A stretch of 64,000 nucleotides of DNA from the human T2T-CHM13v2.0 reference genome, Homo sapiens. The translations under genes and the position numbers were made by a program. Positions 60,332 through 60,502 of this stretch are shown here, one piece after another. Below the pieces are notes generated by a model, which was given only the letters and a program-made list of their open reading frames with translations, had not been told where the DNA came from and did no database searches. Each line of letters opens with the position of its first letter. Position 1 is the first letter of the stretch. The stretch lies in the NCBI GenBank assembly GCA_009914755.4, contig CP086569.2:14752001-14816000 (forward strand), in the 5' to 3' direction.

Positions 60332-60502
60332 GAAAGTTATATAATGCTTCAACATGTGTCATTTTCCTGCAAGTATAAGGTGACTGTCCAACCAATATGG
60401 CCAAAAGTCACTCCAAGGCAGAAGCTGTTTTCTTCACTACTCCACCATGCTCTGCTCTTAAGGGGAACAGCCACAAGCCTGTTGGCTGCCTGGGCGAAGC
60501 AG
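60332..60502 (+). pseudogene. ANOS2P: ANOS1-like pseudogene exon, equivalent to ANOS1 exon 11 (FnIII-3/4 region); 1-bp deletion frameshift in an A-run (about 60403-60407); acceptor and donor both look non-canonical
   Basis: [25 protein letters not shown], then a frame switch, then [33 protein letters not shown]. Anosmin-1 reads [58 protein letters not shown]. Upstream is ...ctctac|gaaag and downstream is gaagcag|gcacat. Confidence 0.8.

What the first reader, a model, noticed from the sequence alone, without database searches (positions are those of the whole stretch)
60395..60412. Frameshift by loss of one A in an A-run in the exon-11 equivalent; both splice junctions of this exon look damaged
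The frame changes between ...VTVQPIWPK (frame 2) and [10 protein letters not shown]... (frame 1). The switch sits at ccaaaagtcac, where anosmin-1 (RPKSHSK) implies CCAAAAAGTCAC. This is a classic homopolymer slippage lesion. The sequence upstream of the exon is ctctac|GAAAG, with no AG. Downstream is GAAGCAG|gcacat, a GC rather than GT donor.
Basis: partly seen in the sequence, partly recalled or inferred. Interest (0 to 1): 0.5.

Follow-up and report, generated by a model that had tools for sequence, protein, structure and literature searches.

The report
Decayed exon 11 of Y-linked ANOS2P
This is the exon-11 remnant of the already known Y-chromosome pseudogene copy (KALP/KALY/ANOS2P) of the Kallmann-syndrome gene ANOS1; it has lost one base and both splice signals, which is ordinary decay of a dead gene.

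Summary
Window 60332-60502 (+) is the equivalent of ANOS1 exon 11. Its reading frame switches from frame 2 (…VTVQPIWPK) to frame 1 ([11 protein letters not shown]…) inside the four-A run at 60403-60406. The exon is 171 nt, whereas four vertebrate orthologues have 172 or 175 nt. Putting one A back restores an open frame across the exon 10-12 equivalents. The acceptor is AC (60330-60331) where all four orthologues have AG. The donor is GC (60503-60504) where all four have GT.

The context is an unprocessed, multiply disabled ANOS1 homologue in an Alu-rich primate sequence. Exon equivalents 4-7 and 10-13 are present, and exons 8-9 are absent. That matches the published structure of human KALY (ANOS2P). 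The pseudogene also carries another one-base loss, two stop codons and a third broken splice site elsewhere, so the exon-11 lesions fit neutral decay.

"Five A's in ANOS1" is therefore inferred from the protein (P-K-S-H), and loss of the G from an AAG lysine codon remains possible. This is already known and of low interest. Its practical relevance is to X-Y gene conversion and to read mis-mapping in ANOS1 diagnostics.

The parts
60332..60502 (+). Exon-11 equivalent of ANOS1 (c.1450-1621). It is 171 nt instead of 172 and has six amino-acid replacements against human anosmin-1: N485S, I488M, D491H, L492V, R506W, K529N.
   Evidence: tblastn; 1zlg_A alignment; boundaries
60403..60406 (+). Four-A run where the frame shifts from 2 to 1. 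One base is missing relative to P507-K508-S509 (CCA AAR AGT).
60330..60331 (+). Former 3' splice acceptor, now AC behind an intact polypyrimidine tract. The nearest AG dinucleotides are at 60305 and, inside the exon, at 60335.
   Evidence: All four orthologues have AG at this column; AG positions
60503..60508 (+). Former 5' splice donor, now GCACAT. T>C at +2; A at +5, where the three mammalian orthologues have G (GTACGT).
60397..60399 (+). TGG (Trp) where anosmin-1 has Arg506 and the orthologues L001, L005 and L006 have CGG. This is a CpG-to-TpG transition just upstream of the run.
57525..57619 (+). Exon-10 equivalent, 95 nt. AG acceptor and GT donor are intact, with 1 of 32 residues changed.
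61477..61697 (+). Exon-12 equivalent, 221 nt, with intact AG and GT. It is in frame with exon 11 only if one base is restored.
62823..62962 (+). Exon-13 equivalent, with an in-frame TGA at 62871-62873 (Arg to stop).
13153..42114 (+). Upstream exon equivalents: exon 4 (13153-13375), exon 5 (23718-23901), exon 6 (about 26335-26449) and exon 7 (41909-42114). They carry their own lesions.

Best explanation
The site is the exon-11 remnant of the unprocessed Y-linked homologue of ANOS1 (KALP/KALY, now ANOS2P), most likely the human copy. After X-Y recombination stopped, the Y copy lost function and has been mutating without selection. Three independent point lesions accumulated in this exon. (i) One base was lost in the run CC-AAAA(A)-GT. 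The most likely cause is replication slippage shortening A5 to A4. It shifts the frame by -1 and, in a conceptual exon 10-11-12 transcript, runs into a stop eight codons into exon 12. (ii) The acceptor changed from AG to AC. (iii) The donor changed from GT to GC, with a second weakening change at +5. Shown: the lesions, their positions, the exon identity and the pseudogene context. Inferred: that the lost base was an A, that slippage was the mechanism, and that the locus is on the Y chromosome.
For: The frame switch and one-base deficit are seen. Re-inserting one A gives an open frame through the exon 10-12 equivalents, matching anosmin-1 until the exon-13 stop. AG and GT are conserved in four orthologues and changed here. 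The anosmin-1 protein was confirmed from PDB 1zlg_A. The pseudogene context consists of a one-base loss in exon 5, TGA codons in exons 6 and 13, an exon-4 donor of AT, and no detectable exon 8-9 equivalents. About 13 Alu copies indicate a primate genome. Iwase et al. 2010 (PMC3055243) report that human KALY has a deletion spanning introns 7-9 and lacks exon 3, that chimpanzee KALY keeps everything except exon 3, that rhesus KALY lacks intron 9-11, and that exons 10-14 lie within about 7 kb. The window fits the human pattern: exons 10 to 13 span 5.4 kb. PMC5860151 states that KALP is a pseudogene because of frameshifts and premature stops and that it degraded in situ. Three of 32 canonical splice nucleotides are hit in the eight exon equivalents. 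That is in line with roughly 4-10% neutral divergence on the Y lineage (dY about 0.044 since the split of rhesus monkeys and hominoids; about 10% total X-Y distance in stratum 4).
Against: No human or primate X-linked ANOS1 DNA could be retrieved. The lysine-508 codon (AAA or AAG) and the human intron-11 donor are therefore not directly known. Chromosomal location cannot be tested. The exact ORFs spanning the lesion were not found in other public assemblies, so the four-A state has no independent replicate here. Published sexing primers for ANOS1/ANOS2P do not occur in this window. This is uninformative, because they may lie elsewhere in the gene.
Confidence: 0.9

Rival explanations
1. This is the same pseudogene and the same one-base deletion, but the lost base was the G of an AAG lysine codon (CCA AAG AGT becoming CCAAAAGT). 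That would be a simple deletion that created the A4 run, not slippage within an A5 run.
For: The protein constrains the ancestral string only to A-AAR-A. The mammalian orthologue L001 uses AAG for this lysine, while L004 uses AAA.
Against: Homopolymer contraction is the commoner mutational route (established knowledge). A second one-base loss in this pseudogene also sits in an A-run (exon 5, GTAAAG to GTAAG). Only 16 of the exon's 171 positions lie in runs of four or more, so an arbitrary deletion would rarely end up in one.
Confidence: 0.22
2. The four-A run is a sequencing or assembly error at a homopolymer, and the true sequence is in frame.
For: Homopolymer length is a classic error mode. 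No independent copy of the lesion-spanning ORFs was found.
Against: The same exon has two mutated splice sites and six replacements. The gene has several other disabling lesions. A run of only four or five bases is short for such an error, and the locus is a documented pseudogene with frameshifts.
Confidence: 0.03
3. The window is the KALY copy of a non-human hominoid such as gorilla or orangutan, not of human. The lesions would then be that lineage's own, or shared.
For: Species cannot be determined with the available collections. The exon 8-9 status of gorilla or orangutan KALY is not given in the paper that was read.
Against: The pattern of missing exons matches what is reported for human and differs from chimpanzee and rhesus.
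Confidence: 0.12

Closest known systems
Human ANOS2P (KALP / KALY), the unprocessed Y-linked pseudogene of ANOS1 at Yq11
   Same: It keeps an ANOS1-like exon-intron structure with introns retained. It carries frameshifts and premature stops. Exons 8-9 are absent and exon 3 was not found. Exons 10-13 sit within a few kb. The context is an Alu-rich primate sequence.
   Different: Nothing found here conflicts with it. The individual exon-11 lesions were not found spelled out in the open-access papers available. The primary description (del Castillo et al. 1992, Nat Genet 2:305) was not readable here.
ANOS1 exon 11 (c.1450-1621), the X-linked functional gene
   Same: It encodes the same segment (E484 to the first base of G541), begins after the c.1449 boundary, and 51 of 57 codons are conserved.
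   Different: The window copy is one base shorter and has an AC acceptor and a GC donor, where four vertebrate orthologues have AG and GT. It has six amino-acid replacements, including the CpG transition R506W.
Other stratum-4 X-degenerate pseudogenes on the human Y (for example STSP1 and the ARSD/ARSE pseudogenes)
   Same: They are X-Y gametologues that degraded in situ by small indels, stops, splice-site loss and exon deletions.
   Different: They belong to different gene families. The 3' part of the KAL pair is additionally subject to recurrent X-Y gene conversion.

Membership tests
ANOS2P / KALY (Y-linked unprocessed ANOS1 pseudogene) | Collinear homology to ANOS1 exons with the introns retained | tested here: met
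   Exon equivalents 4, 5, 6, 7, 10, 11, 12 and 13 lie in order on the + strand over 50 kb
ANOS2P / KALY (Y-linked unprocessed ANOS1 pseudogene) | Multiple disabling lesions (frameshifts, premature stops) | tested here: met
   One-base losses in exons 5 and 11; TGA in exons 6 and 13; splice dinucleotides lost at the exon-4 donor, exon-11 acceptor and exon-11 donor
ANOS2P / KALY (Y-linked unprocessed ANOS1 pseudogene) | Human-specific deletion spanning introns 7-9, so that exons 8 and 9 are absent (Iwase et al. 2010) | tested here: met
   No significant match to residues 355-451 anywhere in the window. The best is E=0.38 at 52919-53002. Published structure.
ANOS2P / KALY (Y-linked unprocessed ANOS1 pseudogene) | Exon 3 deleted | tested here: inconclusive
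   No match to residues 81-110 in the 13 kb upstream of exon 4. The size of intron 3 is unknown here, so the exon could lie outside the window.
ANOS2P / KALY (Y-linked unprocessed ANOS1 pseudogene) | Location on the Y chromosome (Yq11) | not testable with these tools
   No human or primate genome collection is available. Scans of metagenome, genome and viral contigs were empty.
Functional ANOS1 exon 11 | A 172-nt (1 mod 3) exon with an open frame | tested here: not met
   171 nt with a frame switch at 60403-60406
Functional ANOS1 exon 11 | Canonical AG acceptor and GT donor | tested here: not met
   AC and GC here, against AG and GT in four orthologues
Homopolymer slippage deletion | The ancestral allele has the same mononucleotide run, one unit longer | tested here: inconclusive
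   The protein P-K-S-H requires CCA AAR AGT CAC. Whether R was A or G could not be determined, because no primate X sequence was available.

The most novel reading that the evidence does not exclude
Exon 11 lies in the 7-kb exon 10-14 tract where X-Y gene conversion has recurred in primates. The trio of linked lesions (acceptor AC, the one-base loss, donor GC) could therefore serve as a signature. It could date the last X-to-Y conversion over this exon. It could also reveal rare Y-to-X conversion alleles of ANOS1 that cause Kallmann syndrome, or false frameshift calls from mis-mapped ANOS2P reads in males.
Probability: 0.1. Interest if true: 0.3.

Novelty: already known. Interest (0 to 1): 0.08.

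Why it matters
It matters little for biology. It documents, base by base, how one exon of a known Y-linked pseudogene has decayed. There are two practical points. First, ANOS1 and ANOS2P are similar enough in the exon 10-14 region for gene conversion and X-Y recombination. Transfer of this tract to the X would introduce a frameshift and two splice defects at once. Second, these Y-specific differences are useful as paralogue-discriminating positions when calling ANOS1 exon-11 variants in males.

Tried and rejected
Attempts to obtain the human X-linked ANOS1 exon 11 with its flanks:
- Degenerate back-translated patterns for [11 protein letters not shown] and [11 protein letters not shown] were scanned in metagenome, genome and viral contigs. 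All scans were empty.
- A protein search with the repaired exon returned only four non-primate ORF fragments. These were nevertheless useful as orthologues.
- A six-frame concatenated query of 59950-60880, meant to fish any ORF called on X or Y contigs, returned nothing.
- Exact look-ups of the two window ORFs that span the lesion found nothing.
- Full-text searches for the nucleotide strings CCAAAAAGTCAC and similar found only unrelated primers.
- The primary KALP paper (PubMed id 1303284) is not held.

Other checks:
- The ANOS1/ANOS2P sexing primers from PMC9875541 are not in the window.
- An Rfam scan of the whole window gave no match.
- A Pfam scan of the repaired translation of the exon 10-12 equivalents gave only a sub-threshold fn3 hit.

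Considered and rejected:
- That the window is a functional gene using a GC-AG intron. The acceptor is not AG and the frame is broken.
- That the loss of both splice sites in one exon needs a special explanation. Three of 32 canonical splice nucleotides are hit gene-wide, which is what neutral divergence predicts.

Full report
**What is in the sequence.** The string ccaaaagtcac lies at 60401-60411, with the A-run at 60403-60406. A tblastn of anosmin-1 against the window gives two linked matches. The first is 60323-60406 in frame 2 (…[16 protein letters not shown]). The second is 60403-60504 in frame 1 ([34 protein letters not shown]). Their joint E-value is 1.45e-22, and they overlap only on the A-run.

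I first used the anosmin-1 sequence from memory. I then checked it against PDB chain 1zlg_A ("Anosmin 1"), which reads …[65 protein letters not shown]….

**Exon boundaries.** The neighbouring matches end at …SGMTH (57619, followed by gtaagg) and restart at G|GT CAT GTT (…gctgcag|GTCATG at 61477). The exon-11 equivalent is therefore 60332-60502, 171 nt. A published pathogenic ANOS1 splice variant, c.1449+1G>A (PMC10160557), places the human exon 10/11 boundary after codon 483. That is exactly where the window exon begins (GAA = E484). Exon 11 of ANOS1 should therefore be c.1450-1621, which is 172 nt.

**Comparison with orthologues.** No primate ANOS1 DNA could be reached. A protein search did return four ORF fragments called on vertebrate host contigs in Logan and ENA assemblies, and their DNA was retrieved. 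The intron flanks of L001, L005 and L006 align with those of the window; the flanks of L004 hardly align. In the alignment:
- All four have …ctAG|GA(A/G)AA…, where the window has …ctAC|GAAAG.
- All four have G|GTA(C/A)GT, where the window has G|GCACAT.
- All four have one more base at GGCC-AAAAG.

Their exon lengths are 172, 172, 175 and 175, all 1 mod 3, against 171 here. Re-inserting a single A after 60406 yields an uninterrupted translation through the exon 10, 11 and 12 equivalents. It matches anosmin-1 until a separate TGA in exon 13. Without the repair, a conceptual exon 10-11-12 transcript ends eight codons into exon 12. The frameshift and both splice-site changes are therefore confirmed.

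**What could not be shown.** The identity of the missing base remains open. The protein P507-K508-S509-H510 requires CCA AAR AGT CAC, and the window has CCAAAAGTCAC. The ancestral string was either AAAAA (contraction of an A5 run) or AAAGA (loss of the G).

I favour contraction, at about 0.7, for three reasons. Homopolymer slippage is the commoner route. The other one-base loss in this pseudogene is also in an A-run (exon 5: GTA AAG TGG reads GTAAGTGG at 23781-23788). Only 16 of the exon's 171 positions lie in runs of four or more. Even so, this is an inference. Likewise, AG and GT in the human X gene are inferred from conservation in four orthologues and from the gene being functional.

**Context.** The window carries equivalents of these ANOS1 exons:

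| Exon | Coordinates | Lesions |
|---|---|---|
| 4 | 13153-13375 | Donor AT at 13376-13377 instead of GT |
| 5 | 23718-23901 | One-base loss |
| 6 | about 26335-26449 | TGA at 26362-26364; the five codons TTDER have no counterpart |
| 7 | 41909-42114 | None seen |
| 10 | 57525-57619 | Splice sites intact |
| 11 | 60332-60502 | The finding |
| 12 | 61477-61697 | Splice sites intact |
| 13 | 62823-62962 | TGA at 62871-62873 |

Nothing significant matches residues 355-451, which correspond to exons 8-9. About 13 Alu copies show a primate genome. No Rfam family matches anywhere in the window.

**Identification.** Iwase et al. 2010 (PMC3055243) describe the following:
- KALX has 14 exons.
- KALY is a Y-linked pseudogene, disabled by deletions and nonsense mutations.
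- Chimpanzee KALY retains everything but exon 3.
- Rhesus KALY lacks intron 9-11.
- Exons 10-14 lie in a region of about 7 kb with frequent X-Y gene conversion.

The window's exon complement and spacing fit the human pattern. The nomenclature paper (PMC5860151) records that KALP, now ANOS2P, was called a pseudogene because of frameshifts and premature stops, that it degraded in situ, and that it is still transcribed. Y linkage itself cannot be tested with these tools.

**Mechanism.** This is neutral decay of a non-functional gametologue. In eight exon equivalents, three of the 32 canonical splice nucleotides are changed. The published divergence is dY about 0.044 since the split of rhesus monkeys and hominoids, and about 10% total X-Y distance in stratum 4. 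That predicts roughly one to three such hits. Two of them falling on one exon is unremarkable. The R506W change (CGG to TGG) and the +5 G-to-A change in the donor are CpG transitions, typical of unconstrained sequence. If the conversion dates of Iwase et al. apply to this sub-region, the three lesions arose after the last X-to-Y conversion, on the order of 20 million years ago or less. This last point is an inference.

**Novelty and interest.** The locus and its pseudogene status have been known since 1992, and the lesions are of the expected kind. The only mildly useful angle is practical. The exon 10-14 tract exchanges sequence between X and Y. This linked trio of differences could therefore mark Y-to-X conversion alleles or mis-mapped reads in ANOS1 diagnostics. 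Interest is 0.08, and the novelty class is already known.

Noticed in passing
window 23776-23790: The exon-5 equivalent has its own -1 frameshift. It reads GGAGGTAAGTGGTCC where anosmin-1 (E-V-K-W-S) requires GTA AAG TGG. One A of an A-run is missing, the same kind of lesion as in exon 11.
   Followed up: partly
window 13369-13381: The donor of the exon-4 equivalent reads AAAG|ATAAGG, which is G>A at +1. This is a third destroyed splice site in the pseudogene.
   Followed up: partly
window 26331-26364: The five codons TTDER (residues 243-247) that link exons 5 and 6 in anosmin-1 have no counterpart. The match starts at GTTCAACTG, directly after ctgtgag. There is an in-frame TGA at 26362-26364 (Arg257 to stop).
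   Followed up: partly
window 42115-57524: No equivalent of exons 8-9 is found in the 15.4 kb between exons 7 and 10, which agrees with the deletion reported for human KALY. There is one weak, collinear, probably chance match to residues 408-435 at 52919-53002 (E=0.38).
   Followed up: partly
window 62871-62873: There is an in-frame TGA in the exon-13 equivalent (STLY*LEV, Arg to stop). The last third of that exon is heavily substituted (…[12 protein letters not shown] against …TIKTFRTPELPP).
   Followed up: no
L001 1177-1348; L004 1631-1802; L005 163-337; L006 2735-2909: Host-derived vertebrate contigs in Logan and ENA metagenome assemblies carry ANOS1 exon 11. It was called as a bacterial-style ORF (starting at the Met of ENYMIL…) that runs on into the intron. 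These are spurious 'proteins' in the protein collection, carrying a Pfam Ig_ANOS1 hit.
   Followed up: yes
window 60290-60535 and 60397-60594: The lesions create two overlapping ATG-initiated ORFs of 81 and 65 aa across the exon. Neither product is on record in the public gene-call collection.
   Followed up: yes
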